A DNA stretch of 64,000 nt from IMG/VR virus record IMGVR_UViG_3300045988_177154, positions 160,001-224,000 of that record, one strand, 5' to 3'. The position numbers and the translations under genes are program-made. The notes beneath the pieces are model-generated. The model was not told where the DNA came from and did not search any database. It saw nothing but the letters and a program-made list of their open reading frames with translations. Shown here one piece after another: positions 4,946 to 59,367 of the stretch. Each line of letters starts with the position of its first letter. Within the stretch, counting starts at the first letter, position 1. The stretch is from a virus.

Positions 4946-5812
4946 ATGGGAATGAATGATGTATTGACTTTGAATCTTGAAAATAAGAAGTATTATTGTT
5001 TTTATTGGAATAACCATCTTTATCAGATGAAAGATTTGAAGTCAATCTTCGGCCCCCAATTAACAACTTCTATTTTCTATGATTTAATTAACAATGATAA
5101 TGAAGAGGCTGCAGTAATTGTAGAAGAAGATACTATCAATTACTCAGTTCTTGACATTGAATCGTCTATTTTAGATTTCTTACCTAATGGAAAACAAACT
5201 TTAATTTACGAAGCTATGGCTAATGATGAATTAGAAGATTATGACAAACAACTAATCTATACTAATCATTTTAAATGTTTCAACTCCTTTGATTTGATTA
5301 AAGCAATGGTGGAAGTAAATGATAGTTATTTTAATTTCATGCTTGATGATTATATTAACAATCATGGAGCTTTCTTCCCTATTGAAATTTACTTCAATAA
5401 TGATAATAAAGAAATAACAATTAAAAATCCATTTCAAATTAACTCTTCAATTGAAGAAACTTTAAAACTAAAAGAAGATTTGAGTAATTTCTATATTGAA
5501 GAAAATCATCTTGGTAAAGAAATTGACGAATACCAAAAATATAAATCAACACAATTGCCTAATAAAGGTATTATCCAATTAACTGAATTTGTCTTAAATA
5601 CAGAAAAAGAAAACTCTGTTTTTGATTATGAAAATCTATTCTATAAACAATTGCCGTCATTGGTGTTGCTAAGAAGTCGTGATTCTTTAGAAACAAATAT
5701 TACTGCTTATCAAGCTGAAACAAAAATTTGCTTGGAATTTGCTAAAAAAATTTATGAAAGCATTTCAAGAGAACTAAAATATATTAAACTTATTCAAGAG
5801 AGGTATTTGTGA
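4946..5812 (+). CDS. hypothetical protein (operon with the telA-like gene)
   Basis: Starts 3 nt after the telA-like stop, with a GGAGG RBS inside the upstream gene. Confidence 0.55.
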   Translation: MGMNDVLTLNLENKKYYCFYWNNHLYQMKDLKSIFGPQLTTSIFYDLINNDNEEAAVIVEEDTINYSVLDIESSILDFLPNGKQTLIYEAMANDELEDYDKQLIYTNHFKCFNSFDLIKAMVEVNDSYFNFMLDDYINNHGAFFPIEIYFNNDNKEITIKNPFQINSSIEETLKLKEDLSNFYIEENHLGKEIDEYQKYKSTQLPNKGIIQLTEFVLNTEKENSVFDYENLFYKQLPSLVLLRSRDSLETNITAYQAETKICLEFAKKIYESISRELKYIKLIQERYL

Positions 5813-15285: not shown

Positions 15286-16092
15286 ATGGAAAACTATTCA
15301 AGTAACAAAGATATATACATTAAAAGAATGAATCAAACGGCTAAATCTAAATTTGCTGTTGTTGAGCCTTATTTATCAAAAGGTATGAAAATTCTTGATT
15401 TTGGCTCAGGTATTTCACCTGAATTTATTTCAGATGTAGACTCATCTGGTGCTGAATATTATGCTTATGATATTTCTAAAACAGTTCAAACAGAATTGGC
15501 AAGTATGGGTGTAAATGTTATCACACAAGAAGATTTAACTAATAAAAAAGTAAAATTTGATGTTATTTATCTATCTAGTGTATTCCATGAAATCATCAGT
15601 TATCTAAATCGTCAAGAACGAACAGAAACAATTGCTATGATTATTAACAATTTAAAATCTGGCGGTTATCTAGTAATTCGTGACTGGGCTAATCCCAATA
15701 ATGACAGCAACTTCAAAATTCAAACTGTTTCTAAACAGGCTGAAGAAGAAATGAATATTTGGATTAAAGAGCTCAAAAAAAATTCTATCATTGATAACGA
15801 TTGTCATAAGCTTGTGGATGGCTCAATTTTAACAAGTTGTACAAATGCTTATGAAATCATTTTCCATACTGTATGGGGCTTAAAATCATTAAGCCGTGAA
15901 TCAAAAGAACAATATAATGTTGAAGAAAGCATTGAGAAATGGATTTATAACCCTTGGGAAAAAGAGTTAAAGCTCCAAACTGTTTATTATGAAACTGATG
16001 AAACTTATTTACCTCATTTACAAAAATACTTTAAATCAGATGAAGTTCCATTTGAAACTAAATCAATTCATATTTTCCAAAAAAATAAATAA
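15286..16092 (+). CDS. class I SAM-dependent methyltransferase
   Basis: Motif I ILDFGSGIS, DVIYLSSVFHEI, and LKSGGYLVIRD. Confidence 0.65.
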   Translation: MENYSSNKDIYIKRMNQTAKSKFAVVEPYLSKGMKILDFGSGISPEFISDVDSSGAEYYAYDISKTVQTELASMGVNVITQEDLTNKKVKFDVIYLSSVFHEIISYLNRQERTETIAMIINNLKSGGYLVIRDWANPNNDSNFKIQTVSKQAEEEMNIWIKELKKNSIIDNDCHKLVDGSILTSCTNAYEIIFHTVWGLKSLSRESKEQYNVEESIEKWIYNPWEKELKLQTVYYETDETYLPHLQKYFKSDEVPFETKSIHIFQKNK

Positions 16093-16098
16093 AATCTA

Positions 16099-16127
16099 TT
16101 GACTTTAATTTTTGATTATGATAGAAT
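16099..16127 (+). promoter_or_regulatory. sigma-A type promoter of the first tRNA transcription unit
   Basis: TTGACT, 17 nt, TAGAAT. Confidence 0.65.
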
Positions 16128-16379
16128 AACTATTGTAAGATAGTTTAAGCATTTGTCAGAACAAGACTTCAAATCCGTACTTGCACCACTACGTACAAAG
16201 CAATCATAAGACCAGTTCATAAGAGTGGATATGAACTACTAAAAGACAGAATGTTAGTTCGATTCTGACAAAAGACTTGTTAATATTTCTTATCATTTGG
16301 CTTAAAGAAGTTTTACAAGGTGACGATGGTTTGGTTCTGAAAAGGCAAAAGGGTTACAATGCCGTTTCTTTTTATTTTT

Positions 16380-16453
16380 GGACCATTAGCTCAATTGGTC
16401 AGAGCACCCGGCTCATAACCGGATGGTTGCAGGTTCGAACCCTGCATGGTCCA
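16380..16453 (+). tRNA. tRNA with CAT anticodon (Ile2/lysidine-type or Met)
   Basis: Cloverleaf GGACCAT..GCTC-AATTGGTCA-GAGC..loop CTCATAA..GCAGG-TTCGAAC-CCTGC..ATGGTCC-A. Closely resembles B. subtilis tRNA-Ile(CAU). CCA is not encoded. Confidence 0.85.
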
Positions 16454-16588
16454 TTCCTAGTTTGGCATATAGTCGACTATGCTAATATTGGTAGGGCCCG
16501 TTAGTGACCCCATATTGAGTTCTAAATCCAGTAACGTAACGGACGATAGTTCTGAATATGAATGTAGGTTCGATTCCTATCTAGGAAA
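16454..16588 (+). ncRNA. 135-nt non-canonical tRNA-like element
   Basis: Perfect 7-bp acceptor-type stem TTCCTAG/CTAGGAA and canonical T-arm GTAGG-TTCGATT-CCTAT. It has a D-arm-like CTA-ATATTGG-TAG but about 60 nt of excess sequence, and I can fold no canonical anticodon arm. Confidence 0.45.
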
Positions 16589-16617
16589 TAAAAATTTAAA
16601 TTTTTTAAATTTTTCTA

Positions 16618-16645
16618 TTGACTTTGCTTAAAATTGTGATATAAT
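16618..16645 (+). promoter_or_regulatory. sigma-A type promoter (extended -10) of the second tRNA unit
   Basis: TTGACT, 16 nt, (TG)aTATAAT. Confidence 0.65.
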
Positions 16646-16693
16646 AATATTATCGGATATGACAAAAGCATCTAAATGATGCTCCTTTCTTAT

Positions 16694-16767
16694 GGCCTGC
16701 TAGCTCAATTGGATAGAGCACACGCCTTCTAAGCGTGCGGTTATAGGTTCGAATCCTATGTGGGCCA
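16694..16767 (+). tRNA. tRNA-Arg (TCT)
   Basis: GGCCTGC..GCTC-AATTGGATA-GAGC..CACGC-CTTCTAA-GCGTG..ATAGG-TTCGAAT-CCTAT..GTGGGCC-A. Confidence 0.9.
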
Positions 16768-17144
16768 TTACTTAGACTCGGACAGCTATCTCATTTAATA
16801 TAGGAAAAATACATTAAAGATACAGTCACCAATTTTTTAAAACAATTTTAAAACGAATTTACGAGTCTAGAATTTAGGAACGAACAGCAATCCTTTTCTA
16901 AACAACTATTAAAGCTAAATAATAATTTGAAATGAAAAAGAGAGTTCCTAGTTTGATTTAAGGGGTTTCTTGTGAAGTTAAATTAGTTCAAAACTAATAA
17001 CTCCTATAAAGCGGGGCCTTTGATTTCCCCCGCTTGAAAATCACTAAAAATAAATGCTCCTAAGAATTTATTTTTTGTTTTTTTCGTTTCTTTTCATTTC
17101 ATTCCGCTTGGGTAATACTTCCTCCTGTTACCCAAGTACATTAT

Positions 17145-17215
17145 TACGGGTTAGTGAAAAGGTATCACATAGGGCTCATTACCCTAAATTGGGGGTTCGA
17201 ATCCCTCGCCCGCAA
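17145..17215 (+). tRNA. tRNA with CAT anticodon and an initiator-like anticodon stem
   Basis: TACGGGT-TA-GTGA-AAAGGTA-TCAC-A-TAGGG-CTCATTA-CCCTA-AATT-GGGGG-TTCGAAT-CCCTC-GCCCGCA-A. It has three G:C pairs at 29-31:39-41, an A-C mismatch at 2:71, and a 4-nt variable loop. Confidence 0.6.
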
Positions 17216-17237
17216 TTTCCATTGGCTACCACCGACA

Positions 17238-17294
17238 AAAAGCTCACTAATTCCAATCATAAAGATTGAAAATTAGTGAGCTTGGTGTTTTTTA
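17238..17294 (+). terminator. terminator of the tRNA unit
   Basis: Long stem agctcactaatt/aattagtgagct plus a T-run. Confidence 0.7.
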
Positions 17295-17317
17295 TAAACA
17301 TGAAAGAAGGTTAATAA

Positions 17318-18424
17318 ATGAAATATAGTTACTCATACTATAATGAAGAAGATTTTGATACTTATGTTAAACAATTTGATAATTATTCTTTGCTTCAAAG
17401 TAGAGAATGGGGTGCAGTAAAAAGCCCTATATGGAAAAATAAAAAAGTTTTATTCTATGAAAATGAAAAAGTAGTAGGAACTGCCCTAATTCTTATTAGA
17501 GAAATTGCTTTTCATAAAAACTTTATCTACATTCCTTATGGGCCGCTTTTTGATTATTCTAATAAAGAATTATTTAACTTTGTAACAGAAAGCTTAAAGA
17601 AAATTGCTAAAGAAAATAAAGCAATTTTTGTAAAAGTAGTTCCACCTGTATTTGATGATAATTCTATTAGTGTCGATTTCAAAATTAACGGTTGGGTAGA
17701 AAATGTTACTGAAAAATCTTTTGATTCTATTCAACCAAAATTAAATGCTGTAATTAAAGATTTCAAAATGAGTAAAAGAATGAAACAAGAAAGACGAACA
17801 ACAGAAAATAAAAATGTACATTCTGTTTATTCTATTGACACTGAAGCTTCTTTTGAAACATTATTACATGATTTTTATTCTTTGACTAAATTAACTGAAA
17901 AAAGACAAGGTATTAAATTAAGAAATAAAGATTATTTCAGACAATTACTATATAGATACCCAAATTCATTCATTACTGTTTCTTATATTGATAAGGAAAA
18001 ACAAATTGCTAAATTAAATGAAGAATATAATAAATCAAATAGTGAAAAAGCTAAACAAGAATTAGAAAAACTTAAACATAATCAAGCTAAAAACATTCCG
18101 ATTTCAGGCACTCTTACTGTAATTTATGGAGATACGGCAGAATTACTCTATGCGGGATTTGACGATAATTTCAAATCATATAATTCTGCTTCTTATTCTT
18201 GGAGTAATTCTATTATGAAAGCTTTTGAGCTTAATCCTAATCTTAAATATGTAAATTTAGGTGGAGTAGAAAATGATGGGCACTTGCTAAACTTTAAAAA
18301 GAAATTCCACCCAGAGATTAGAACTTCTTGTAATGAATTTGATTTACCAATTAGTCCTTTATACTATTTATTCAAATTTGCTCTAAAACATAAGAAACTT
18401 ATTCTCAAATTTATCAAAAAATAA
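17318..18424 (+). CDS. FemAB/MurM-family aminoacyl-tRNA-dependent peptidoglycan branch peptide transferase
   Basis: N-terminal pattern F..YV.....LLQSREWGAVKS..W......Y.....VG.ALILIR.......IYIPYGP..DY, plus a central coiled-coil insert, as in FemX/MurM. Confidence 0.75.
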   Translation: MKYSYSYYNEEDFDTYVKQFDNYSLLQSREWGAVKSPIWKNKKVLFYENEKVVGTALILIREIAFHKNFIYIPYGPLFDYSNKELFNFVTESLKKIAKENKAIFVKVVPPVFDDNSISVDFKINGWVENVTEKSFDSIQPKLNAVIKDFKMSKRMKQERRTTENKNVHSVYSIDTEASFETLLHDFYSLTKLTEKRQGIKLRNKDYFRQLLYRYPNSFITVSYIDKEKQIAKLNEEYNKSNSEKAKQELEKLKHNQAKNIPISGTLTVIYGDTAELLYAGFDDNFKSYNSASYSWSNSIMKAFELNPNLKYVNLGGVENDGHLLNFKKKFHPEIRTSCNEFDLPISPLYYLFKFALKHKKLILKFIKK

Positions 18425-18563
18425 AATTACTTGATATAATATATAAAGAGGGGTTAACTACTACTCTTCTTTATATATTGATTGTCAATAAATTTAATCT
18501 TAATGGTTGCAAAATAAATTTATTTTTGATACAATATTTAAAATGATATTTTATAAACTTTTT

Positions 18564-18652
18564 GGAGAGGTACTCAAGTCTGGTTAAGAGGACGGTTTGC
18601 TAAGCCGTTAGGTCGTTAATTCGGCGCGTGGGTTCGAATCCCATCCTCTCCA
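18564..18652 (+). tRNA. tRNA-Ser (GCT), class II with a long variable arm
   Basis: GGAGAGG..anticodon loop TTGCTAA..variable arm..GTGGG-TTCGAAT-CCCAT..CCTCTCC-A. A TTGCAA-N17-TACAAT promoter lies upstream. Confidence 0.9.
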
Positions 18653-18696
18653 TATTTTATACATTAAAAAACTTTCAATAAGAAAGGAGCATAACT

Positions 18697-20611
<1,915 letters not shown>

Positions 20612-34549: not shown

Positions 34550-36873
34550 TTATTGTTCTTTTCTTTTTCTGATAAAGAGTGCAGATACAGAAGCAATAAG
34601 AGCACCTAACATTGTTAATGTAGTAGAATTTTCAGTACCAGTTTTAGGTAATTGTTTTTCTACTTTAGGAGCTTCTTTTTTAGGTTCTTCCTTAGTTACA
34701 GTAGTTTTATGAGCAGTTGTTTTTACATCTTCAATAACTGGTTTGTCAGTAGAGATTACAATGTTTTCAACTTCTACAGTAATTGGTTCTGGTTCTTTTG
34801 GTTTTTCAATTTCTTTAACTGATTGAGCAATAGTAGGTGTTAATTTGTCTGTTTTTTCATCTTTTACTGATGATAAATCTTTAGAGCTTGCAGTAACATT
34901 ATCACCTGAAACTGATTCTTTACTATTTACAATAAATGAACCTTTTACTGTTCCAGCATTATTGTTGATTGCAGTAAAATCATATTCAACAGTATAATCA
35001 CCTTTTTCAGTTAAATCTACTTCTGCTTTAACAGAATTATTTTCGATTTTTAATTCTTGTTTCTTTCCACTTGGCGAAACCAATTTAGCAGAAGTCAATT
35101 TTGTATTTTTGTCAGCAATAATATTCACAATACCTTTAGAAGTAATTTTCTTCTTAGAAGTGAATGTTTCAACAGCAGTATTTTTAAATTGTTCTAAAAT
35201 TTCTTTCATAACAACTTCTTTATCTTTACCTGTTGAATCATAAATATTAGGGTGACCATATTGTTGCATTGACTTGATTGAAAATTCGCCATTATTATCT
35301 TCAGCAGATACTTGGTTTCTATTGATTACTGACATGAAAGTTTTAGCGTTTTTCTTAGCCCAAGCTGCGAATGTTGGGTCCATTTCTTCTCTATCACCCC
35401 AGCCGTCAGTAAATTGAATTACAGAAACAGTTTGGTTTTTTGATGATTGTGAAGTATATACTTCTTCAAATGGAATTTTCTTAACAGATGCTGTACCATC
35501 TACTTCATCTGTCTTATATCCTAAATCACCCATTGCTTTTGCAACAGAGTTGAAGTATTCAGAATAATTTGCAGCTCCATTAGGAGTGTTTGGTGGATTT
35601 ATAGCAAGCCATTTATCAATAATAGATAATGCTTCTTCTTTGGTAACAAGTTTTGTTGAGAAACCTGTTTCCCAATCAGAATTGCTAAGTTTTGAAAAAT
35701 CTAATTGAGCTCCATGAGCCGCATAAGATGCTTCTTTATTATAAATATAACCTTGAAGCATAACTTTATCACCGGTATTTAAATTCTTTTCGATTAAAGT
35801 TTTTAATTGTCTAAGTGCTTCAGGTCGTTTTGCTTGTAATGAAGAACTAAAGTCAACAATAGCAATTAAATCCATAGGCTTTCTTTGAACTGTTTCAGAT
35901 GAAGATTCATCTAGCAATGATTTACCTTTAAGGATTTGATGATAAACGCCATTATTGTTTTTTGCAGTAGATTCAGAAGTTAATTTTGCTTTTATATCCT
36001 TATTCTTTGCTACAATAATTTTATTCTGAGCATTATTATCATTCCAAGATTTCAATGCTTCTTTATAAGCAGTTTGTTTTTCTTTTTGTTGTTGAATTGC
36101 TTTGTTGATTTTTTCAAGCTCTTTCTTGATTGCTTCATCTGAATCTTTAAGAGAAACAACTTTATCACCTTTTACAGTAACTTTAACATTTTCCTTTTGA
36201 GCAATTGTAATAGCGTCAGTTAATGATTTTGAAAGTCCTGCTTGTTTAGAAATAGAATCTTTTAAATTCTGTTCAACTTTTTCTACTTCTTTTTTGAACT
36301 CATCTTCTTTACCTGGTGTTAGAGTTAACTTAATCTCTTTATCTAATTTAACACCAGCTTTAGATGCTTCAGAAACAACTTTAGATAAACGCTCATTAGC
36401 ATTTGATACTAATTCTGTAAGACTGTTAATAGTCTTAATCTGATTTTCAATGTCAGTCTTTGCTTCATTTGCAGTTTTATAATTGACATCTTTAGTTAAC
36501 TCAACAATAACATGATTTTCTTTTGCTTTCTTAATTGCTTCTAACAATTTAGCATTTGAATCATCTTTTGTTGTTTCAGTATTTGTCTTTGTTTAGTAAC
36601 TTGCTCTGTTTTAACTTCTGTTTTTGCAGTAGTTTCTTGTGCTGATACAACACCAGTACCTAACAATAGAGTTGTTCCTAAAACAATACAACTAGAAAGA
36701 CCATATGCTTTTGATTTACGGAAATATCCGTGACCTTTTTTAATAATCAAAATAGTACACTCCTGTTTTTTAATTTTAATAAAACTAATATCAAATGTTT
36801 TCTTTGATTTTTTAGAAAAATAAAGATATATATAATAAATATTGGCTATAAAATGATAGTCAATAAAAAACAA
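34550..36873 (-). pseudogene. LPXTG-anchored vWA-domain adhesin split by a frameshift between signal peptide and mature protein
   Basis: ORF 36541-36873 encodes only an FRKSKAYG-type signal peptide (..VVSAQE). ORF 34550-36547 encodes a MIDAS motif DFSSS, LPKTG, a TM segment and RKRKEQ. The two frames overlap at 36544-36592. Confidence 0.6.
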
Positions 36874-39912: not shown

Positions 39913-40767
39913 TTAAATAAAATTCCTATAATAACTTGATAACTTTAATCCAGTTGAATATTTGTTAGGCTTTAATCTTAACTTACGATTCTTAATTTTT
40001 CTCCAATGTGTAAGAGTTAAATCAATATCCGGATTTTCTAAATTCTTTTCATGAGTACTTTCTCTTGGTTCAAAATCACTAATGTTAATATCTGGGAAAT
40101 ACTCATATCCATTATAAAGTGTTTCTTCTTTGATAAAGAATAAATCAGTAACTCTAGTGTAATATGTTTCAAATAATTCTAATCCACCAATAATAAAGAT
40201 TTCTTTTTCTGTATCATTTTTTAGCGCTGATAATGGGTTAGGATAAACATTTACATTTCTATAATTTTGAGGATTAACTTCTGCTCTTCTTACATTACCA
40301 ATAATTCTGTATTCTGTCTTTTTATATTTCTTCGGTAATGCTAAATAAGTTTCTTTATCAAGTATTACTATATTATCTTTGAGTAATTTTTCAAAAATAT
40401 TATAAACAACTTCATTATATGTTCCGTATTTGTCAACACTATCTAAACAAAAGATTTCATCAATACGAGCTAAGAAGTTAATTCTTTCTTTTTTGTTTTT
40501 AATTGATTTGTTATAAGCTCTGTTAATGGCTTTATCAATTCGCTCAGGTATATCTTTATTTTTTGTTTCACCTGTTTGAGTTCGTTTATAGAGACTATAA
40601 ATGGATTTGAAAACAATTTCTTTGAAGTCAACATCATTTGAAGCTAGGATTTGTTCTATTTTTGATTTTGAAATAAAATCGCCAAAGATATTCCAAGCTT
40701 CTTTTTCTTCATACAAAATGCCTTCTGCATCATAAATAGGCTCAAATTTAAAGTTAATTTTTGTCAT
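39913..40767 (-). CDS. protein with a dihydrofolate reductase-like C-terminal domain and an extra N-terminal region
   Basis: VILDKETYLALP....YRIIGN and EIFIIGGLELFETYY.....LFFIKEE......YFPD....DFE parallel the DHFR motifs VIMGR.TWESI..LPGR.NI.LS and IMVIGGG.VY..FL.....LYLT.I......FPD. Confidence 0.45.
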   Translation of the reverse strand: MTKINFKFEPIYDAEGILYEEKEAWNIFGDFISKSKIEQILASNDVDFKEIVFKSIYSLYKRTQTGETKNKDIPERIDKAINRAYNKSIKNKKERINFLARIDEIFCLDSVDKYGTYNEVVYNIFEKLLKDNIVILDKETYLALPKKYKKTEYRIIGNVRRAEVNPQNYRNVNVYPNPLSALKNDTEKEIFIIGGLELFETYYTRVTDLFFIKEETLYNGYEYFPDINISDFEPRESTHEKNLENPDIDLTLTHWRKIKNRKLRLKPNKYSTGLKLSSYYRNFI

Positions 40768-40855: not shown

Positions 40856-41887
40856 TTATCTATGTCCTTTAACATAAGAGAATTGGCTTGCTGAAGCAGC
40901 ATCGAATACTCTATATGATACAACTCCTAAACCTTGGAAATTAGATTCAGAAATTAAGATAGAACCATCAGGTCTTACATCTTCAACGAAAGCAACGTGG
41001 CCGTAAAAATCAATAGCACCTGCTTGACCTGGTGCGAATGACAAAGCATCACCAATTTCTGGTTTGTTTGATACAGTATAACCAGGTTTTAATCTCCAGT
41101 CCCCACCGTTCCCCATATATGGGCCGAATGAAATTCCGAATTGTGCAGCTCTGTTATATACGTACCAAGTACATTGACCCCAAGGGTATGTTGCTGAGGT
41201 ATAACCAGATGTATCAATAGCTTTGCTTAATTTAAAACCATTTGGAACTGAACTTGATGTTGTTCCACCTGATACATATGAAATTCTAGCATAATATTGA
41301 GAAGCTTCTTGTTTTGCATCTTCTACTGCTTTATTATACTCTTTTTCAATTTTATCTACTTCTTGTTTCTTGTCTTTTTCTTTAGCAACAGCTTCATATA
41401 AACGAGCTTTTGCTTTATCAACTTCTGTTGTAGATTTATCTAAATTAGCTTTTGCCTTAGCAGCTTCTAATTTATAGTTAACTACTGTTGAATCTTCATT
41501 ACCTAAAAGATTGCCAGTATTTGTATTTTCAAACAATTTACCGGTATCTTTGTTAATTTCTTCTTCTGACAATCCAATAGCTTTCAACTTTTCTTGTTCA
41601 ATCTTTGTTTTGTCATGTGCGTTTTTAACTGAATCTTTTGTTTGTTCAGAATCAGTATTAAGTTTGTCATAGGCTTCTTGAAGTGATTTAGATTCTTTAG
41701 TTAATTTATCTAAATCAGACTTTGCTGAAGTCAATTGAGATTTCAATTGGGTTAAATAATTCGCTGTTACTTCAGAAACTTCAACTTCGCCAATTGTAGC
41801 TTCGTTAGCAAATGCTGGACTTACACTCATAAGAGATGTGAACATTGCCAACATTACTACGCTCTTAAAAAGTTTGTTTTTCTTCAT
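40856..41887 (-). CDS. secreted coiled-coil plus CHAP-domain peptidoglycan hydrolase (PcsB-like)
   Basis: Signal peptide, long coiled coil, and a CHAP domain with GQCTWYVYNRA (Cys) and GHVAFVE (His). Confidence 0.85.
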   Translation of the reverse strand: MKKNKLFKSVVMLAMFTSLMSVSPAFANEATIGEVEVSEVTANYLTQLKSQLTSAKSDLDKLTKESKSLQEAYDKLNTDSEQTKDSVKNAHDKTKIEQEKLKAIGLSEEEINKDTGKLFENTNTGNLLGNEDSTVVNYKLEAAKAKANLDKSTTEVDKAKARLYEAVAKEKDKKQEVDKIEKEYNKAVEDAKQEASQYYARISYVSGGTTSSSVPNGFKLSKAIDTSGYTSATYPWGQCTWYVYNRAAQFGISFGPYMGNGGDWRLKPGYTVSNKPEIGDALSFAPGQAGAIDFYGHVAFVEDVRPDGSILISESNFQGLGVVSYRVFDAASASQFSYVKGHR

Positions 41888-42491: not shown

Positions 42492-43187
42492 TCAAATTTT
42501 TACCTTTCTGTCAATCGTTTTCTTAATTTCAGAAAGAATTAAATCATTATCTGATAAAACATCTTCAGTAAGAATTAAATCGAAATCTTTATATTCTAAA
42601 TAGCTTGTTTCACTTGGGTGATTAAATGCTTCTTTATTTGGTAATATACCATCTCGATTTAAAAGATTTTCAATTTGCTTCTCTTTTGAAATATCCAATT
42701 GAATAGTAATTCCATTAAGTTCAGAAACACCTTTTAATTCATTAGGGAAACGACCATCTGTTATAAGAGCTACATTTCCTAATTTATTTATTTCTAAAAT
42801 TTTATTAACTGTTTTCTGAACCCAATAATTTTCATTATTCTTTCTTCTTACATCAGTACCCCAATATTGAAGCATAAAACGTATAGTTGAATTTTTCTTT
42901 TTAACAGTTAACTCATTTATATCTTTAAAAGCAATCATTGCTATATATAATGGTTTTATTTCATCTTTTGATACGTTCATTTCATAAGCAATATGTTCTA
43001 AACTTGAATTGTTTCTAATTAAATTGATAATATGTTCAACTTCTTCTTTTAAAGCATCAGCAAATGAAATTTTCTCTATATTGGAGAAGCTGTTTTTAAT
43101 TAAATTACCAACATAATCCTTTCCATAACCCATTTTACCAGCAATAACAATTGCTGGTACGAATTTTGAATCAATTTTATTTTCCAT
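42492..43187 (-). CDS. P-loop deoxynucleoside monophosphate kinase-like protein
   Basis: The P-loop-like GKMGYGKD and the ITDGRFPNE motif resemble phage-type dNMP kinases (D.RFPNE). Confidence 0.5.
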   Translation of the reverse strand: MENKIDSKFVPAIVIAGKMGYGKDYVGNLIKNSFSNIEKISFADALKEEVEHIINLIRNNSSLEHIAYEMNVSKDEIKPLYIAMIAFKDINELTVKKKNSTIRFMLQYWGTDVRRKNNENYWVQKTVNKILEINKLGNVALITDGRFPNELKGVSELNGITIQLDISKEKQIENLLNRDGILPNKEAFNHPSETSYLEYKDFDLILTEDVLSDNDLILSEIKKTIDRKVKI

Positions 43188-43608: not shown

Positions 43609-43764
43609 TTTTAGCCAATTGCTTGAAACTTTTTCATAAAATATTTATTTTTATCACATTTTATTAACTTTTTTAACATTGCTCAAATATTGCTATAATA
43701 ACGATAGCTCCGTTTTTGATATACGCTTTTGATTTATAAATTTTTTTACAAAAGGAGAATAACA

Positions 43765-46395
43765 TTGAGCAAAAAATTTCTATTATCTCAATCTGCAACT
43801 ACAAAAGTTGCAATAGGACTTGCTACAATTGGTGGGATTGGAGCAGTTGGTCATCATGTTATCAATCAAGCGATTGATGCTCAAGCAGAAGCAAAAGAAC
43901 AATCTGCTAACAAAGATGTAACAGAATTAAATACTTTTTCAGAAGTTTTGTTACCCAAAAAGGTCTCAAGCATTTTAGATTCACCTATTGGGCCAGTTGA
44001 TTCTAATATTTTTGAGTCTGATAAAAAAGTAGAACTAAGTTCTTTAAACTTAGAAAATTCTACAAGAGTAGAAAATGAAACTATACCTTTTGAAACAGAA
44101 ATTAAATATAATGATGATAAACCATCTAATTATGTAAATCTAATTCAAGAGGGGAGTAACGGTGCACGTACTACTACTTTCATTGATTCATTTGATGAAA
44201 ATGGTAAACTTATCCAATCTGTAAAAACACTTGAAGAAAATGAAGAACCAAGAAAACAGATTATTGAGATTGGTACAAAAAATGTCGAGCAATCAGATGA
44301 AGTTAATACTCCAACAGAAATAATTTCTAATGGAACTAATTCTAATATAGAATTAGACTCTAAAACAATCATTGAAACTATCCCTAAAGAAACAATCTAT
44401 ACTATTGATGAAAATTTAAGTAAAGATGAATCTTATACCATCAAGGGTGAAGATGGATTAAAAGAAGTAAGTACTAATACTGTATCTGTTAATGGTGTTG
44501 ATGTTCACAAAGAAGTCACTCATGAAGAAGTAATCAATCCAGCAATTCATGATGTTACTTATATTTCAGAAGAAGCTTATAATAAGAAAATTGCTTCAGA
44601 AGATTTAAAAGAAATCAAAGTAGAAGAAACTACTGAAACAACGACAAAAAATACTACCACCGAAGAAGTAACAGAGAATACTACTGAAGCAATAACAGAA
44701 AATACAACGACAACAGAAAGCATTACTGAACCTACTACTGAAAATACTACCGAAACGACAACAGAAAGCACCATTGAAACAACAACAGAAAACACTATTC
44801 AAGAAAGAAAAGTAACAAAAGAAGAAAGAAATACTACTTCTAAAATATTACAATTCCAAACTACAGTTATTGAAGATGAAAACTTATCAGAGGGTCAAGT
44901 TGTTGTTGAGCAATTAGGAATGAACGGGTCAGAATATGATGTTTACCAAGATACTTTTGTTGATGGTAATCTCGTATCTTCTACCATTGTTAGAACTGTA
45001 ACGACTGAGCCTGTAAATCAAATAGAAAGACATGGCACAAAGAAAGATGAAACAAAAGGACCTGGCCCAAGTGATGAAGTTAGAGAAACTTTACATGAAG
45101 ATAAAAGAGGAATACCTGGTGCAGAGTCAGTCCAAAAAGTAGTTAAAGAAACAACTACTAAAGACTTGAGAATAGAAGTTGTTTATGATGAAACAATGCC
45201 AGATGGTACTGAGGAAGTAATAGAAGAAGGTAAACCAGAAACTACTGAAATTACTTATAAAATTACATCTGTTAATGATGAAGTTATTTCTAAAGAAAAA
45301 ATGAATGAAGAAGTAACACAACAAGCTATTACTCGTGTTGTAAAAAGAGGTACTGGTAAAACTACTAAATCTTATGACAATACTATAACAAAAATTCCAT
45401 TTGAAACAGAAACTATTCAAGATGATACTTTATTACCAGAAGAAAGTTATACTAAACAAGAAGGCTTGCCAGGTTCAGAAGTAACAGAATATGAATTAAC
45501 ATATATGAATGGCAATCTTGTTTCAAAAGAAGTAACTTCTACTCATAGAATTAAAGAACCAACAAAAGAAATTAAAGTTGTTGGAACTAAAGTTATTCAA
45601 AATAATTCTAATAATAATTATCAATCAGGTGCAGTTAAGAATGGAAATGTGGTTGATTTAGGAAAAACTAGAGACATTACATTGAAACAAGGTTTAGATG
45701 ATTACGATTCGCTACCTAATGGAATTACTGTACAATACTTTACTATAACTGATGATACTCCATTAGAAAAAATTGTAACTCTATCCGAAGATGAACGTTA
45801 TCAAAAATCAGACAAAGAATATTACAATAGTATGGTTGTAAGTCATGACGGATTAAATATTGAGTCTGGTATTCCATTATCTCAAGGTGGAGCAGATTAC
45901 ATTAACGAACATTTAGATAGTAATCTCCTTGCTATGTATATGGAACAATACATCAATGAGTTAAGAGCTTCATTAGGTAAAAAACCATTACGATACAAAG
46001 CTGAACTTCAACAAGGAACTCAACAACGTGCTGATGAACAAGCAAATATTGGTTCATTAAGAAGTAATGGAAGAGCTCATACTAGACCAGATGGAACAGA
46101 ATTTAGAACTGCGTTCACTTATTTAAACAAGAATGGATTAAAAGATAAAGAACAAGAATTAGGCGAAAATACTGCTCAATTTTCTTCAAACAATCCATAC
46201 ACATTAACTTCTGAAAAGAAAATTGCTGAAACATTGTTTAATCATTGGAAAAACTCCCCAGGCCATTATGCTAATATGATTTCAGACAATTATAAATATT
46301 TCTCATTTGCAGCTTCTGTTGGAAGAACAAGTGCAAACATGGAAGAATATTCAGAACTTTATCCAGTAATTGTGGGTGTACAAATATTTCAATAA
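43765..46395 (+). CDS. secreted or anchored protein with multiple G5 domains and a C-terminal SCP/CAP (YkwD-like) domain
   Basis: TTG start 7 nt after AAAGGAG. Repeated G5-like units (..E.G..G......Y.....NG........T.....P...I...GT). The C-terminus NHWKNSPGHYANM is CAP/SCP-like. Confidence 0.65.
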   Translation: MSKKFLLSQSATTKVAIGLATIGGIGAVGHHVINQAIDAQAEAKEQSANKDVTELNTFSEVLLPKKVSSILDSPIGPVDSNIFESDKKVELSSLNLENSTRVENETIPFETEIKYNDDKPSNYVNLIQEGSNGARTTTFIDSFDENGKLIQSVKTLEENEEPRKQIIEIGTKNVEQSDEVNTPTEIISNGTNSNIELDSKTIIETIPKETIYTIDENLSKDESYTIKGEDGLKEVSTNTVSVNGVDVHKEVTHEEVINPAIHDVTYISEEAYNKKIASEDLKEIKVEETTETTTKNTTTEEVTENTTEAITENTTTTESITEPTTENTTETTTESTIETTTENTIQERKVTKEERNTTSKILQFQTTVIEDENLSEGQVVVEQLGMNGSEYDVYQDTFVDGNLVSSTIVRTVTTEPVNQIERHGTKKDETKGPGPSDEVRETLHEDKRGIPGAESVQKVVKETTTKDLRIEVVYDETMPDGTEEVIEEGKPETTEITYKITSVNDEVISKEKMNEEVTQQAITRVVKRGTGKTTKSYDNTITKIPFETETIQDDTLLPEESYTKQEGLPGSEVTEYELTYMNGNLVSKEVTSTHRIKEPTKEIKVVGTKVIQNNSNNNYQSGAVKNGNVVDLGKTRDITLKQGLDDYDSLPNGITVQYFTITDDTPLEKIVTLSEDERYQKSDKEYYNSMVVSHDGLNIESGIPLSQGGADYINEHLDSNLLAMYMEQYINELRASLGKKPLRYKAELQQGTQQRADEQANIGSLRSNGRAHTRPDGTEFRTAFTYLNKNGLKDKEQELGENTAQFSSNNPYTLTSEKKIAETLFNHWKNSPGHYANMISDNYKYFSFAASVGRTSANMEEYSELYPVIVGVQIFQ

Positions 46396-50356: not shown

Positions 50357-50812
50357 ATGAAATTTTACTATCACAACTTTAAAGATTTAAGAGGAAACCA
50401 CATTAAATATTTTGCTAATGGAGATGATTTTAAAGTAGAAGAAGTTTTTACTACTATCTCACACAAAAACGTTTTAAGAGGTTTTCATACATCAAGCAAA
50501 CAAGAAAAACTTATCAAAGTATTAAATGGTTCATTACATCTAATTACTGTAAATGAAGAAACAAAAGAAATTACTCATTATGACATGAATGTTGATTCTG
50601 AGCCAATCTTTATTCCATTGAATACTTGGGTGGGCTATGTTATCAAAGAAAACAATACAATTGTTAATTATATTTGCTCTGGTAAATTCTCACCTGAAAC
50701 AGATTTAACTTGCTCTCCTAAATCATTCGCAAATGAATGGCTATGGCCTATTCCTTATTCAGATATTATCATTTCTGAAAAAGACGACCAGGCAGAAATC
50801 AGAACTTTATAA
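50357..50812 (+). CDS. RmlC-like cupin (dTDP-sugar epimerase/isomerase-like)
   Basis: F.DLRG......F........SHKNVLRGFH......KLI.V..G.......; 151 aa, shorter than canonical RmlC. Confidence 0.5.
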   Translation: MKFYYHNFKDLRGNHIKYFANGDDFKVEEVFTTISHKNVLRGFHTSSKQEKLIKVLNGSLHLITVNEETKEITHYDMNVDSEPIFIPLNTWVGYVIKENNTIVNYICSGKFSPETDLTCSPKSFANEWLWPIPYSDIIISEKDDQAEIRTL

Positions 50813-57777: not shown

Positions 57778-57849
57778 TGGTTGACAAGTTATTGATATTG
57801 TGTTAGTATTTGTTTAACAACATTAAAAATAAAGGAAAAGGTGACTAAA

Positions 57850-59346: not shown

Positions 59347-59367
59347 TGGAATAATATAACTATGAAG
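59347..59367 (+). promoter_or_regulatory. conserved promoter-like motif TGGAATAATATAACTATGAAG, overlapping the start codon
   Basis: The ATG of 59362-59964 lies inside the motif. Confidence 0.5.

What the first reader, a model, noticed from the sequence alone, without database searches (positions are those of the whole stretch)
16099..18652. tRNA and tRNA-like genes wrapped around an aminoacyl-tRNA-dependent FemAB-family transferase
Two promoter-driven RNA units precede a FemAB/MurM-family gene (17318-18424). Their order is tRNA(CAT), a 135-nt tRNA-like element, tRNA-Arg(TCT), a non-coding stretch of about 375 nt, and tRNA(CAT). tRNA-Ser(GCT) follows directly at 18564-18652, and then rmlA-rmlB. 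FemXAB/MurM enzymes take their amino acids from aminoacyl-tRNAs. Staphylococci keep dedicated non-proteinogenic tRNA-Gly species for this, and MurM uses Ser- or Ala-tRNA. An accessory replicon that places its own tRNAs, including non-canonical ones, around such a transferase suggests a self-contained module for remodelling peptidoglycan cross-bridges. The alternative is simple codon supplementation.
Basis: partly seen in the sequence, partly recalled or inferred. Interest (0 to 1): 0.68.

Follow-up and report, generated by a model that had tools for sequence, protein, structure and literature searches.

The report
tRNA island beside plasmid MurM-like gene
A probable giant plasmid of mouth streptococci carries four transfer-RNA genes and several previously unannotated tRNA-shaped RNAs next to a cell-wall enzyme that uses charged tRNAs, but the evidence suggests the tRNAs mainly help translate the plasmid's AT-rich genes rather than feed that enzyme.

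Summary
ARAGORN and Rfam both find four tRNAs: CAT 16380-16453, Arg-TCT 16694-16767, CAT 17145-17215 and Ser-GCT 18564-18652. ORF 17318-18424 is a genuine FemAB-family gene of the MurM/FemX type. The 135-nt element (16454-16588) is a real structured tRNA-like RNA supported by covariation.

The window looks like an "Inocle", a giant extrachromosomal element of oral Streptococcus. Thirteen relatives keep the same array.

The idea of dedicated tRNAs for the Fem enzyme is not supported:
- tRNA-Ser is transcribed with rmlAB from its own conserved promoter.
- FemAB is bracketed by strong hairpins.
- The 66%-identical sister FemAB has no tRNA within 3 kb, and streptococcal murM homologues have none within 4 kb.
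- The other tRNAs look like Ile2 (AUA), Arg (AGA) and an aberrant initiator-like tRNA. AGA and AUA are about three times commoner here than in streptococcal chromosomes.

Most likely this is a translation-support and structured-RNA island beside an accessory cross-bridge transferase. The tRNA-like RNAs are new and their role is unexplained.

The parts
16099..16127 (+). Promoter 1 (TTGACT-17-TAGAAT, with TG extension)
   Evidence: Second-best sigma-70-like match in 15900-18800. A TTGAC-type -35 and a -10 box are kept at this position in relatives, with sequence variation.
16135..16379 (+). Element A, a ~240-nt structured leader RNA. It contains a hairpin at 16214-16237 and a T-arm-like hairpin GUUAG-UUCGAUU-CUGAC at 16253-16269. 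A long hairpin at 16276-16319 has an invariant AUUUGGCUUAA loop. A 3' hairpin plus U-run lies at 16340-16379. The 5' end is inferred from the promoter.
   Evidence: Conserved in 13 relatives. For the 3' two-thirds, 99.4% of cells are paired and 6 pairs change on both sides, against 0-1 in slid controls. No Rfam match.
16380..16453 (+). tRNA(CAT) no. 1, probably tRNA-Ile2 (lysidine type, reads AUA). No encoded CCA.
   Evidence: ARAGORN. Rfam 71.2 bits. C4-G69 and C5-G68 are read from the sequence. Its acceptor and anticodon stems match a Bacillus Ile2 sequence that I recalled from memory.
16454..16588 (+). Element B, a 135-nt tRNA-like RNA without an anticodon arm. It has a 7-bp acceptor stem (16454-16460 with 16581-16587) and a T-arm (16564-16580). 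Three extra hairpins and an invariant UUGGUAG segment complete it. It starts directly after the discriminator base of tRNA no. 1.
   Evidence: Covariation count: 94% paired and 8 covarying pairs. The single-sequence fold gives the same shape (z = -1.6). Not called by ARAGORN or Rfam.
16618..16645 (+). Promoter 2 (TTGACT-16-TATAAT, with TG extension)
   Evidence: Best sigma-70-like match in the region, 11 of 12. The hexamers are essentially conserved in all 13 relatives.
16667..16683 (+). Leader hairpin followed by a U-rich tract, 10 nt before tRNA-Arg
   Evidence: Flagged as terminator-like. The stem covaries: AGCAUC/GAUGCU in the window and GGAAUC/GAUUCC in relatives.
16694..16767 (+). tRNA-Arg(TCT), reads AGA. 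No encoded CCA.
   Evidence: ARAGORN. Rfam 66.4 bits. Almost invariant in relatives.
16768..17144 (+). Element E, a variable, partly structured spacer. A long-range stem pairs 16773-16780 with 16862-16869. A nested hairpin lies at 16962-17004 and a G+C hairpin at 17010-17034. A hairpin at 17106-17137 carries a UUCCUCCUG loop just before the next tRNA.
   Evidence: Alignment of 13 relatives shows compensatory changes in the 16962-17004 and 17106-17137 hairpins. The 17100-17144 fold has z = -5.8. Length varies from 201 to 726 nt among relatives, partly through an insert that resembles the sequence 3' of a TnpB gene.
17145..17215 (+). tRNA(CAT) no. 2, an aberrant initiator-like tRNA. It has three G-C pairs at the base of the anticodon stem and a CCCGCAA 3' end. 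It also has a U1-A72 pair, an A2xC71 mismatch, U37 and U11-A24.
   Evidence: ARAGORN. Rfam 48.9 bits, with the mismatch marked. The oddities are invariant in 13 relatives, and the variation that is seen keeps the cloverleaf. Compared with initiator sequences recalled from memory.
17240..17293 (+). Terminator-type hairpin (13-bp stem with an inner hairpin) plus a T-run, between tRNA no. 2 and FemAB
   Evidence: Fold of 17216-17317 gives -28.9 kcal/mol, z = -5.1. The stem arms are conserved and the loop varies in relatives. No promoter-like site lies between it and the start codon.
17318..18424 (+). FemAB-family aminoacyl-tRNA-dependent transferase of the MurM/FemX (first-position) type, 368 aa, with a shortened helical arm
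   Evidence: Pfam PF02388, E=7.9e-50. PDB 6SNR S. aureus FemX, E=1.8e-22. Foldseek top hits are FemX and FemA. It is 36% identical over full length to the first gene of a tandem fem pair in S. ferus, but only 24% locally to the second. F326-K327 is invariant.
18439..18478 (+). Hairpin after the FemAB stop codon (terminator-like)
   Evidence: Fold of 18425-18500 has z = -7.8. The stem covaries in relatives.
18507..18535 (+). Promoter 3 (TTGCAA-17-TACAAT, with TG extension), driving tRNA-Ser and rmlAB
   Evidence: Promoter scan. Conserved in all but one of the 12 aligned relatives.
18564..18652 (+). tRNA-Ser(GCT), canonical class II. No encoded CCA.
   Evidence: ARAGORN. Rfam 57.2 bits. The anticodon stem is fully compensated in L026 and L033.
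18697..20611 (+). rmlA (18697-19572) and rmlB (19553-20611)
   Evidence: NCBIfam TIGR01207 at 465 bits and TIGR01181 at 443 bits, both above cut-off.

Best explanation
The window comes from a ~300-kb, 29%-G+C extrachromosomal element of oral streptococci, most likely an "Inocle". Region 16099-18652 is an RNA-gene island made of three transcription units.

Unit 1 runs from promoter 1. It contains a structured leader RNA (Element A), a tRNA that is probably tRNA-Ile2 (reads AUA), and a 135-nt tRNA-like RNA (Element B) abutting its 3' end.

Unit 2 runs from promoter 2. It contains a leader hairpin, tRNA-Arg(UCU, reads AGA), a variable structured spacer, an aberrant initiator-like tRNA(CAU) and a strong terminator hairpin. 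A minority of transcripts read through that hairpin into the Fem gene.

Unit 3 runs from promoter 3. It contains tRNA-Ser(GCU) and rmlA-rmlB.

Inferred mechanism for the RNAs: host RNase P and RNase Z cut the precursors at the tRNA and tRNA-like acceptor stems, and the CCA-adding enzyme completes them, since none encodes CCA. The true tRNAs top up decoding of codons that the AT-rich element uses about 3 times more than its host does. The tRNA-like pieces are released as stable structured RNAs whose role is unknown.

Inferred mechanism for the protein: the Fem protein is an accessory MurM-type enzyme. It adds the first branch residue to the lysine of lipid II and takes aminoacyl-tRNA from the general pool. 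It probably changes the cross-bridge in the way the accessory Fem proteins ScrI, Zif and Lif do. Its position next to the tRNAs reflects shared synteny in one lineage, not a dedicated supply line.

What is shown: the genes, promoter and hairpin motifs, RNA structures, conserved order, codon counts and enzyme family.

What is inferred: processing, read-through, the role in translation, the acceptor substrate and the effect on the cell wall.
For: tRNAs and the Fem family assignment.

Nature of the element. Relatives are 288-342-kb contigs, and one record is labelled as a human oral metagenome. G+C is 29%. LPXTG, G5 and CHAP surface proteins and FtsK, ligase and topoisomerase genes are present. 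The published description of Inocles fits.

Transcription units. Hairpin z-scores are -5.1 and -7.8. Promoter 3 and both hairpins are conserved.

Codon use. AGA is 18.4 per 1000 codons here against 6.5 in streptococcal chromosomal genes. AUA is 9.9 against 3.2.

No tRNA next to related fem genes. The sister lineage with 66% identity has none within 3 kb. The four Streptococcus murM-type loci have none within 4 kb. The 38%-identity homologues sit on short contigs with none.

A TnpB insertion between FemAB and tRNA-Ser leaves both genes present and intact.

Structured tRNA-like RNAs: and for the relatives' extra module.

Precedent for lone accessory Fem genes that alter cross-bridges: bioRxiv 10.1101/2024.09.27.615381.
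Against: - AGY codons are not enriched (17.1 against 24.3 per 1000). An extra initiator-like tRNA is not explained by codon demand either. Supplementation therefore accounts for only two of the four tRNAs.
- Other strongly enriched codons (UUA, AAA, ACA) have no tRNA in this window.
- The host proxy was four non-salivarius Streptococcus species, about 9,500 codons in total.
- FemAB has no recognisable promoter of its own. Its expression seems tied to the tRNA unit, which is a real physical link.
- The invariant oddities of tRNA no. 2 and the conserved anticodon-less RNAs are left without a function.
- Assignment to the Inocle family rests on resemblance, not on a direct sequence match to a published Inocle.
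Confidence: 0.55

Rival explanations
1. One or more RNAs of the array are dedicated aminoacyl donors for the MurM-like enzyme and are kept away from the ribosome. Candidates are the aberrant initiator-like tRNA(CAU), tRNA-Ser(GCU) and the anticodon-less Element B. On this model the island is a self-contained cross-bridge remodelling module.
For: - tRNA no. 2 lies 102 nt upstream of FemAB, with only a terminator hairpin and no promoter between them.
- Its U1-A72 pair next to an A2xC71 mismatch, and its U37, are invariant in 13 relatives. By analogy with initiator tRNA they should weaken use in elongation.
- Ser is a known MurM substrate, and tRNA-Ser follows the gene.
- Element B has an intact acceptor/T minihelix.
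- The order is conserved in all 13 relatives.
Against: - All 13 relatives belong to one syntenic lineage, so the conserved order is not independent evidence.
- The sister-lineage FemAB (66% identity) has no tRNA within 3 kb, and streptococcal murM homologues have none within 4 kb.
- tRNA-Ser belongs to the rmlAB unit, and an insertion sequence can separate it from FemAB.
- tRNA no. 2 should be charged with Met, given its CAU anticodon and A73. No Fem enzyme is known to use Met.
- It lacks G3-U70, a long variable arm and Gly or Thr identity elements (read).
- All four tRNAs keep G18G19 and a standard T-loop, unlike the staphylococcal cell-wall tRNA-Gly species.
Confidence: 0.12
2. Counter-defence. 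The element's tRNAs are nuclease-insensitive spares, and the anticodon-less tRNA-like RNAs are decoys for tRNA-targeting toxins or defence nucleases. This follows the proposal made for phage tRNAs.
For: - The anticodon loop of tRNA no. 2 carries an invariant U37 next to the anticodon. Initiator tRNA is a known VapC target, and anticodon-loop changes in phage tRNAs are predicted to block cleavage (PMC10264068).
- tRNA-like RNAs that keep the acceptor, T-arm and elbow but lack an anticodon loop would be plausible decoys.
- AGY demand does not explain tRNA-Ser.
Against: - No tRNA nuclease or toxin was identified in the window or linked to the array.
- The anticodon loops of the Ile2-like, Arg and Ser tRNAs look ordinary.
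- Codon enrichment already explains two of the tRNAs.
- This is a plasmid-like resident element, not a lytic phage facing abortive infection.
Confidence: 0.15
3. The tRNA-like elements are decaying tRNA pseudogenes or insertion debris with no function. They persist only because the lineage is young.
For: - The array is highly plastic. A 142-nt module is missing from the window and L033. An extra tRNA-Arg occurs in L004/L005. A 330-nt insert resembling the sequence 3' of a TnpB gene occurs in L006/L014/L027.
- Mean column identity is 88-92%, so there are few substitutions to judge from.
Against: - The substitutions that do occur are compensatory far more often than in the controls. Covarying pairs number 8, 7 and 6, against 0-1 in slid controls.
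- Loop motifs such as UUGGUAG and AUUUGGCUUAA are invariant.
- Element B starts exactly one base after the tRNA discriminator in every relative.
Confidence: 0.1

Closest known systems
tRNA gene clusters of AT-rich phages and plasmids (codon supplementation). The phage T4 tRNA cluster, with its co-transcribed stable 'species 1 and 2' RNAs, is cited from memory.
   Same: A few tRNAs for A/U-ending codons that are rare in the host (AGA, AUA) sit on an AT-rich mobile element. They are transcribed as polycistronic precursors with little or no spacer, together with extra small structured RNAs of unknown function.
   Different: - The carrier is a ~300-kb plasmid-like element of Streptococcus rather than a phage.
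- The extra RNAs have no sequence match to any Rfam family.
- One tRNA is an aberrant initiator-like species.
Accessory Fem-type cross-bridge transferases that act as immunity or remodelling factors: ScrI of S. dysgalactiae, Zif of S. equi, Lif/Epr and FmhA/FmhC of staphylococci
   Same: A single extra Fem-family gene sits outside the housekeeping murMN/femXAB set, often on a mobile or regulated locus. It changes the residue at the cross-bridge. The protein here is of the first-position MurM/FemX type.
   Different: - No murein hydrolase gene lies next to it. The nearest CHAP-domain gene is 22 kb away.
- It is about 40 residues shorter in the helical arm.
- Its activity and amino-acid specificity are untested.
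- None of the known systems has flanking tRNA genes.
Non-proteinogenic tRNA-Gly isoacceptors of Staphylococcus aureus, used by FemXAB (PMC7826273, listed)
   Same: The concept is the same: tRNA species partitioned towards cell-wall synthesis. tRNA no. 2 has features expected to disfavour elongation.
   Different: - Those tRNAs carry the amino acid the Fem enzymes actually use. From memory, they differ in the D-loop GG and in T-stem pairs.
- The tRNAs here keep G18G19 and the T-loop.
- Their predicted amino acids (Ile, Arg, Met) are not Fem substrates.
- The linkage is not conserved outside one lineage.
YrlA-type bacterial Y RNAs (tRNA mimics bound by Ro60/Rsr; PMC4201824)
   Same: These are anticodon-less RNAs that keep a T-arm, a D-like element and an acceptor-like stem. 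The inner part of the 142-nt module in the relatives has the YrlA order: T-arm, acceptor-like hairpin, D-arm.
   Different: - No Ro-binding GNCGAAN0-1G motif.
- No Rfam Y RNA match.
- No TROVE-domain gene nearby.
- Elements A and B of the window have free acceptor-type ends or other architectures.
- The relatives' module is a tRNA-like fold nested inside a second tRNA-like fold. I could not find a description of that arrangement.

Membership tests
Canonical tRNA | Cloverleaf scoring above the Rfam RF00005 gathering threshold and called by ARAGORN | tested here: met
   Four genes score 48.9-71.2 bits against a threshold of 29. Element B and Element A are not called.
Canonical tRNA | Purine at position 37 and a fully paired acceptor stem | tested here: not met
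   This applies to tRNA(CAT) no. 2 only. It has U37 and an A2xC71 mismatch, both invariant in 13 relatives. The other three tRNAs meet the feature.
tRNA-Ile2 (lysidine-modified CAU) | CAU anticodon with C4-G69 and C5-G68 in the acceptor stem. These are the TilS determinants as I recall them from the literature. | tested here: met
   tRNA no. 1 reads GGACCAU...AUGGUCC-A. It resembles a Bacillus Ile2 sequence recalled from memory. The lysidine modification itself cannot be tested here.
Bacterial initiator tRNA | Three consecutive G-C pairs (29-41, 30-40, 31-39) in the anticodon stem | tested here: met
   tRNA no. 2 reads UAGGG-CUCAUUA-CCCUA.
Bacterial initiator tRNA | 1x72 mismatch, A11-U24 and A37 | tested here: not met
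   It has a U1-A72 pair with the mismatch shifted to 2x71, U11-A24 and U37. It is therefore initiator-like but cannot be filed as a standard initiator.
FemABX / MurM aminoacyl-tRNA transferases | FemAB Pfam domain and a tandem GNAT-like fold | tested here: met
   PF02388, E=7.9e-50. The AlphaFold model has pLDDT 73. Its top Foldseek hits are FemX 6SNR (E=5e-17), Weissella FemX and FemA.
FemABX / MurM aminoacyl-tRNA transferases | Catalytic Phe-Lys motif (F304-K305 of Weissella FemX, numbering from memory) | tested here: met
   F326-K327 aligns with the VFK of FemX and is invariant in 8 homologues down to 38% identity.
FemABX / MurM aminoacyl-tRNA transferases | Long coiled-coil arm of the FemA/MurM subgroup | tested here: inconclusive
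   Only a short helical hairpin is present, at residues 226-253. About 40 residues are missing relative to a streptococcal MurM-type protein. Weissella FemX lacks the arm altogether, so it is not essential to the family.
FemABX / MurM aminoacyl-tRNA transferases | Transfer of an amino acid from aminoacyl-tRNA to lipid II or UDP-MurNAc-pentapeptide | not testable with these tools
   This needs an enzyme assay and muropeptide analysis.
Fem-dedicated (non-proteinogenic) tRNA | Loss of D-loop G18G19 and altered T-stem, as in S. aureus cell-wall tRNA-Gly (features from memory), and a charged amino acid that the Fem enzyme uses | tested here: not met
   GG and UUCGAAU/UUCGAAC T-loops are kept in all four tRNAs. 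The predicted identities are Ile, Arg, Met and Ser, and only Ser is a known Fem or MurM substrate.
Fem-dedicated (non-proteinogenic) tRNA | Linkage with the fem gene kept across independent lineages | tested here: not met
   There is no tRNA within 3 kb of the 66%-identity FemAB (L028, L029; L008 is a short contig). There is none within 4 kb of the four Streptococcus murM-type genes.
YrlA / Y RNA | Ro-binding helix with the GNCGAAN0-1G motif, and a neighbouring Ro60/TROVE gene | tested here: not met
   The motif is absent from 16093-17317 on both strands. There is no Rfam Y RNA match. The only candidate RNA-binding protein (DUF2828/DUF7788, 57841-59304) is 40 kb away and has no detectable PDB sequence relative.
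Inocle (giant extrachromosomal element of oral Streptococcus) | A ~245-395-kb plasmid-like element from saliva, with G+C of 24-32%, rich in cell-wall and LPXTG genes and insertion sequences | tested here: inconclusive
   Relatives are 288-342 kb, and one record is labelled as a human oral metagenome. G+C is 29%. LPXTG genes and TnpB elements are present. The description in PMC12340149 fits. No published Inocle sequence was available for direct comparison.

The most novel reading that the evidence does not exclude
The anticodon-less Element B, the aberrant initiator-like tRNA, or both, are dedicated ribosome-excluded aminoacyl carriers for the plasmid's MurM-like enzyme. A giant plasmid would then bring both a cross-bridge transferase and its own private donor RNA. 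If the donor is the CAU tRNA, this could introduce an unprecedented residue such as Met or formyl-Met into streptococcal peptidoglycan.

A weaker reading has about 0.5 probability. Elements A and B, and the nested tRNA-in-tRNA module of the relatives, would be new functional classes of tRNA-mimic RNA carried by giant plasmids, whatever their role.
Probability: 0.07. Interest if true: 0.85.

Novelty: new variant of a known kind. Interest (0 to 1): 0.5.

Why it matters
Inocles were described only in 2025. The paper held here reports only that the number of tRNAs differs between Inocle groups and does not mention FemAB. This locus adds three points.

1. These elements carry a small, promoter-driven RNA island. 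It tops up decoding of AGA and AUA. It also encodes an unusual initiator-like tRNA that is invariant in its oddities.

2. The island holds at least two structured tRNA-mimic RNAs supported by covariation, and a third in the relatives with a tRNA-like fold nested inside another. None is in Rfam. Standard tRNA finders either miss them or split them into pseudo-tRNAs.

3. The element carries its own MurM-type branch transferase. Inocles are also reported to encode a PBP, a sortase and LPXTG proteins. Together these could let the element rewrite the host cross-bridge, which is the anchoring site for surface proteins and the target of fratricins and lysins.

If the tRNA link were real, it would be the first mobile "enzyme plus private donor tRNA" cell-wall module. 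The present evidence makes that unlikely.

Tried and rejected
1. Nucleotide searches of 16000-18750 against phage and plasmid collections matched only the tRNAs. The element has no close relative there.

2. Rfam at a permissive threshold found nothing besides the tRNAs in the window. In relatives it found nothing else except weak tRNA-model hits on the halves of the 142-nt module. tmRNA, Y RNA, T-box and csRNA explanations were dropped.

3. A simple "two adjacent pseudo-tRNAs" model for the relatives' 142-nt module fails. Its acceptor stems are only 66% paired with no covariation. The nested model fits, with 98.5% paired.

4. Exact-pattern scans of IMG/VR for tRNA no. 2 and Element B returned only the two Inocle-like contigs already known. 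The Element A pattern gave eight further hits. All proved to be chance matches inside phage coding regions.

5. I considered whether Element A's 5' AACAAG pairs with CUUGUU. That pairing is broken in L001 and L004, whereas the downstream partner ACAAG covaries, so I rejected it.

6. Small ORFs overlapping the array (16277-16504, 16479-16631, 17054-17269) lie across tRNAs and across indel-rich segments. I did not treat them as genes.

7. The mini-ORF reading of 16962-17004 (SD + GTG/ATG + 3 codons) was rejected because the stop codon is not conserved.

8. I looked for a promoter for FemAB between the terminator and the start codon and found none.

9. The DUF2828/DUF7788 protein was tested as a possible Ro60-like partner. 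It has no PDB sequence match and no TROVE Pfam hit, so this was left open.

10. I considered that FemAB might be part of the rml sugar pathway. This is not supported: the two are separate transcription units, and the sister-lineage FemAB has no rml genes beside it.

Full report
**What is in the sequence**

ARAGORN and the Rfam tRNA model agree on four tRNA genes on the plus strand:
- CAT at 16380-16453, 71.2 bits.
- Arg-TCT at 16694-16767, 66.4 bits.
- CAT at 17145-17215, 48.9 bits.
- Ser-GCT at 18564-18652, 57.2 bits.

The two best sigma-70-like promoter matches in 15900-18800 are TTGACT-17-TAGAAT at 16099-16127 and TTGACT-16-TATAAT at 16618-16645.

ORF 17318-18424 matches Pfam FemAB with E=7.9e-50. 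It is followed by rmlA and rmlB, which pass the NCBIfam equivalog cut-offs.

No ORF of 80 aa or more lies in 16093-17317 on either strand. The shorter ORFs there overlap tRNAs.

**What replicon this is**

The window is 29% G+C throughout. It encodes:
- LPXTG-anchored proteins, a G5/CAP protein, a CHAP-domain protein, an FtsK-like protein, an NAD-dependent ligase, a type II topoisomerase subunit and a 5'-3' exonuclease;
- FolD, TelA, a DHFR-like protein, a dNMP kinase and an RmlC-like protein.

Nothing in the phage or plasmid collections resembles it beyond the tRNAs.

Proteins 75-95% identical to the Fem protein lie on contigs of 288-342 kb. One record is labelled as a human oral metagenome, and two contigs are filed in IMG/VR. 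The closest cellular homologues are chromosomal genes of Streptococcus species.

This matches the published description of Inocles: giant plasmid-like elements of oral Streptococcus, 245-395 kb, 24-32% G+C, rich in cell-wall genes and insertion sequences. For tRNAs that paper notes only that their number differs between taxa, and it does not mention FemAB (PMC12340149). I could not compare directly with a published Inocle sequence, so the assignment is probable rather than shown.

**Anatomy of the array**

Thirteen distinct relatives carry the same array. Aligning them resolves the following modules.

It contains:
- a hairpin at 16214-16237;
- a T-arm-like hairpin with a UUCGAUU loop at 16253-16269;
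- a long hairpin at 16276-16319 whose loop AUUUGGCUUAA is invariant;
- a 3' hairpin with a U-run at 16340-16379.

On 11 sequences, 99.4% of cells in these helices are paired. Six pairs change on both sides, against 0-1 when the partners are slid.

Next comes tRNA(CAT) no. 1. Element B (16454-16588) starts at the very next base after its discriminator. It has:
- a 7-bp acceptor stem;
- a 6-bp hairpin;
- an invariant UUGGUAG single-stranded segment that looks like a D-loop;
- a 3-bp hairpin with an 11-nt loop;
- a long arm in the position of a class II variable arm;
- a canonical T-arm.

On 9 sequences, 94% of cells are paired and 8 pairs covary, against 0-1 in slid controls. It has no anticodon arm, and neither tRNA finder calls it.

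Promoter 2 follows. After it come a covarying leader hairpin (16667-16683) and tRNA-Arg. Then comes a variable spacer, Element E, which contains several covarying hairpins. One of them, at 17106-17137, has a UUCCUCCUG loop (z = -5.8).

tRNA(CAT) no. 2 follows the spacer. A 13-bp terminator-type hairpin with a T-run lies at 17240-17293 (z = -5.1). FemAB starts 24 nt after that.

After the FemAB stop codon there is another strong hairpin (z = -7.8). A conserved promoter, TTGCAA-17-TACAAT, lies at 18507-18535. tRNA-Ser follows, and rmlA starts 44 nt after it.

None of the tRNAs encodes CCA (for the first three, for tRNA-Ser).

**Identity of the tRNAs**

tRNA no. 1 has C4-G69 and C5-G68. As I recall from the literature, these are the acceptor-stem determinants of lysidine synthetase. 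Its acceptor and anticodon stems match a Bacillus tRNA-Ile2 sequence that I recalled from memory. It is therefore probably the AUA-reading tRNA-Ile2. The assignment rests partly on memory, and an isotype-specific model should confirm it.

tRNA no. 2 has several initiator hallmarks. It has three G-C pairs at the base of the anticodon stem. Its 3' acceptor strand CCCGCAA is identical to that of bacterial initiators. It departs from them in other respects:
- U1-A72 is paired and the mismatch is shifted to A2xC71;
- it has U11-A24;
- it has a pyrimidine, U37, next to the anticodon.

These oddities are invariant in all 13 relatives. The substitutions seen elsewhere in the molecule keep the cloverleaf. 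It is therefore a selected, non-standard tRNA.

tRNA-Arg(UCU) and tRNA-Ser(GCU) look canonical. The anticodon stem of tRNA-Ser is fully compensated in two relatives.

**The Fem protein**

The best solved relative by sequence is S. aureus FemX (6SNR, E=1.8e-22). An AlphaFold model (pLDDT 73) finds FemX and FemA as its top structural matches. The Phe-Lys motif that aligns with the catalytic residues of Weissella FemX is invariant down to 38% identity.

The protein is 36% identical over its full length (E=8e-74) to the first gene of a tandem pair of ~410-aa fem-type genes in S. ferus. I take this pair to be murM-murN-like. It is only 24% identical, locally, to the second gene. It is therefore a first-position (MurM/FemX-type) enzyme.

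It lacks about 40 residues of the helical arm. From memory of the literature, that region governs MurM's amino-acid choice.

**Does the enzyme have private tRNAs?**

Several results argue against this.

- tRNA-Ser is the only tRNA whose amino acid is a known MurM substrate. It belongs to a separate unit with its own conserved promoter and rmlAB, and a strong hairpin lies between it and FemAB. In L009 and L010 a TnpB element sits between FemAB and tRNA-Ser, and both genes are still intact.
- The 66%-identical FemAB of a sister lineage lies on contigs of up to 150 kb. It has no tRNA within 3 kb. Its neighbours are a TnpB gene upstream and an RNA 2'-phosphotransferase (Tpt1/KptA) gene downstream.
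- The four Streptococcus murM-type loci have no tRNA within 4 kb.
- The 38%-identity homologues lie on short contigs (1.5-2.9 kb) without tRNAs.
- The predicted identities of the other three tRNAs (Ile, Arg, Met) are not Fem substrates. tRNA no. 2 lacks the identity elements for Ala, Ser, Gly or Thr (read).
- All four tRNAs keep the D-loop GG and a standard T-loop.
- Among 54 ORFs of the window, AGA makes up 18.4 per 1000 codons and AUA 9.9. In 28 ORFs from four streptococcal chromosomes the figures are 6.5 and 3.2.

It is not met for AGY (17.1 against 24.3 per 1000). Other enriched codons such as UUA have no tRNA here. Codon supplementation is therefore only a partial explanation.

One real link remains. 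FemAB has no recognisable promoter of its own. It seems to depend on read-through of the terminator that follows tRNA no. 2.

**What the Fem gene most likely does**

A lone extra Fem gene outside the housekeeping set has good precedent. ScrI of S. dysgalactiae puts Thr in place of Ala in the cross-bridge and so protects against the fratricin ScrM. Zif, Lif/Epr and FmhA/FmhC work similarly (bioRxiv 10.1101/2024.09.27.615381).

Inocles are reported to encode a bifunctional PBP, sortase A and LPXTG proteins. This window has two LPXTG proteins and a CHAP-domain protein.

The best-supported reading is that the element alters the first cross-bridge residue of its host's lipid II, using aminoacyl-tRNA from the general pool. 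The acceptor substrate, the amino acid and the phenotype are all inferred.

**The tRNA-like RNAs**

These are the part that no explanation fully accounts for. Eleven of the 13 relatives carry an extra 142-nt module between Element B and promoter 2. The window and L033 lack it.

Rfam scores its two halves as weak tRNAs, at 36 bits each in L004 and 28-31 bits in L014. A model of two separate cloverleaves fails, with acceptor stems only 66% paired and no covariation. A nested model fits, with 98.5% of cells paired and 7 covarying pairs. In the nested model:
- the 5' strand of the first half pairs with the 3' strand of the second;
- the two "anticodon" regions pair with each other;
- the inner T-arm, hairpin and D-arm form a closed, permuted tRNA-like fold.

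The inner fold has the same order of elements as YrlA Y RNAs (PMC4201824). However, there is no Ro-binding motif, no Rfam Y RNA match and no TROVE gene nearby.

Possible roles for Elements A and B and for this module include:
- processing punctuation for RNase P and RNase Z;
- decoys or scaffolds for tRNA-binding proteins;
- nuclease-insensitive mimics in the sense proposed for phage tRNAs (PMC10264068).

None of these could be tested here.

The array is also a hotspot for rearrangement. Relatives show an extra tRNA-Arg, TnpB insertions, and a 330-nt insert resembling the sequence 3' of a TnpB gene.

**Verdict**

The accessory replicon, the genuine Fem transferase and the genuine non-canonical tRNA-like RNAs all hold up. 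The proposed functional coupling between the tRNAs and the transferase has no comparative support and several results against it.

The locus is best described as a translation-support and structured-RNA island lying next to an accessory MurM-type gene on an Inocle-like element. It is a new variant of known kinds. It contains unannotated RNA structures that deserve experimental follow-up.

Noticed in passing
L004:5302-5443 (also L001, L006, L009, L014, L024-L027, L030, L034; absent from the window between 16588 and 16618): A 142-nt module in which one tRNA-like fold (T-arm, closed acceptor-like hairpin, D-arm) is nested inside a second tRNA-like fold. The nested model is 98.5% paired with 7 covarying pairs, whereas the model of two separate cloverleaves fails. 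Rfam scores the halves as weak tRNAs.
   Followed up: yes
L028:3001-4660 (also L008:252-1911 and L029): In a sister lineage the 66%-identical FemAB gene is followed, after 10 nt, by an RNA 2'-phosphotransferase (Tpt1/KptA) gene. This pairs two tRNA-acting enzymes, and there is no tRNA gene within 3 kb.
   Followed up: partly
L009:7251-8744, L014:2150-3583, L028:1227-2639; L006 about 5300-5780: TnpB (IS605-type) genes are inserted at different points around the array. A 330-nt promoter-bearing insert in L006/L014/L027 resembles the sequence just 3' of the L028 TnpB gene, so it may be omega-RNA-like. The array is an insertion hotspot.
   Followed up: partly
window:57841-59304: A 487-aa protein with DUF2828 and DUF7788 domains, which PHROGs labels 'RNA-binding protein'. 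It sits beside a PD-(D/E)XK nuclease (59362-59964) and a topoisomerase II subunit. I wondered whether it is a Ro60-like partner for the tRNA-like RNAs. It has no PDB sequence match and no TROVE hit.
   Followed up: partly
window:17106-17137: The hairpin just 5' of the initiator-like tRNA has a conserved C-rich loop, UUCCUCCUG, complementary to Shine-Dalgarno sequences. The stem covaries in L033. It may be a regulatory or processing element.
   Followed up: no
L004:4885-4956 and L005:4550-4621: Two relatives carry a second, different tRNA-Arg(TCT) plus about 130 nt of extra sequence between Element A and the first CAT tRNA.
   Followed up: no
window:2703-3554, 39913-40767, 42492-43187, 50357-50812: FolD, a DHFR-like protein, a dNMP kinase and an RmlC/FdtA-like epimerase are scattered through the window. 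FolD and DHFR supply formyl-tetrahydrofolate, the donor for initiator tRNA formylation. That is a curious companion to an extra initiator-like tRNA. The RmlC-like gene lies 30 kb from rmlAB.
   Followed up: no
window:9147-11762, 34550-36547, 40856-41887, 43729-46395: Two LPXTG-anchored proteins, a CHAP-domain protein and a G5+CAP protein. This is surface and cell-wall cargo that would be affected by a change in the cross-bridge.
   Followed up: no
window:20772-22635: Two conserved ORFs (346 and 269 aa) directly after rmlB have no family assignment in Pfam or NCBIfam. They are syntenic in most of the relatives whose fetched loci reach that far, and may act on the dTDP-4-keto-6-deoxyglucose made by RmlAB.
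   Followed up: no
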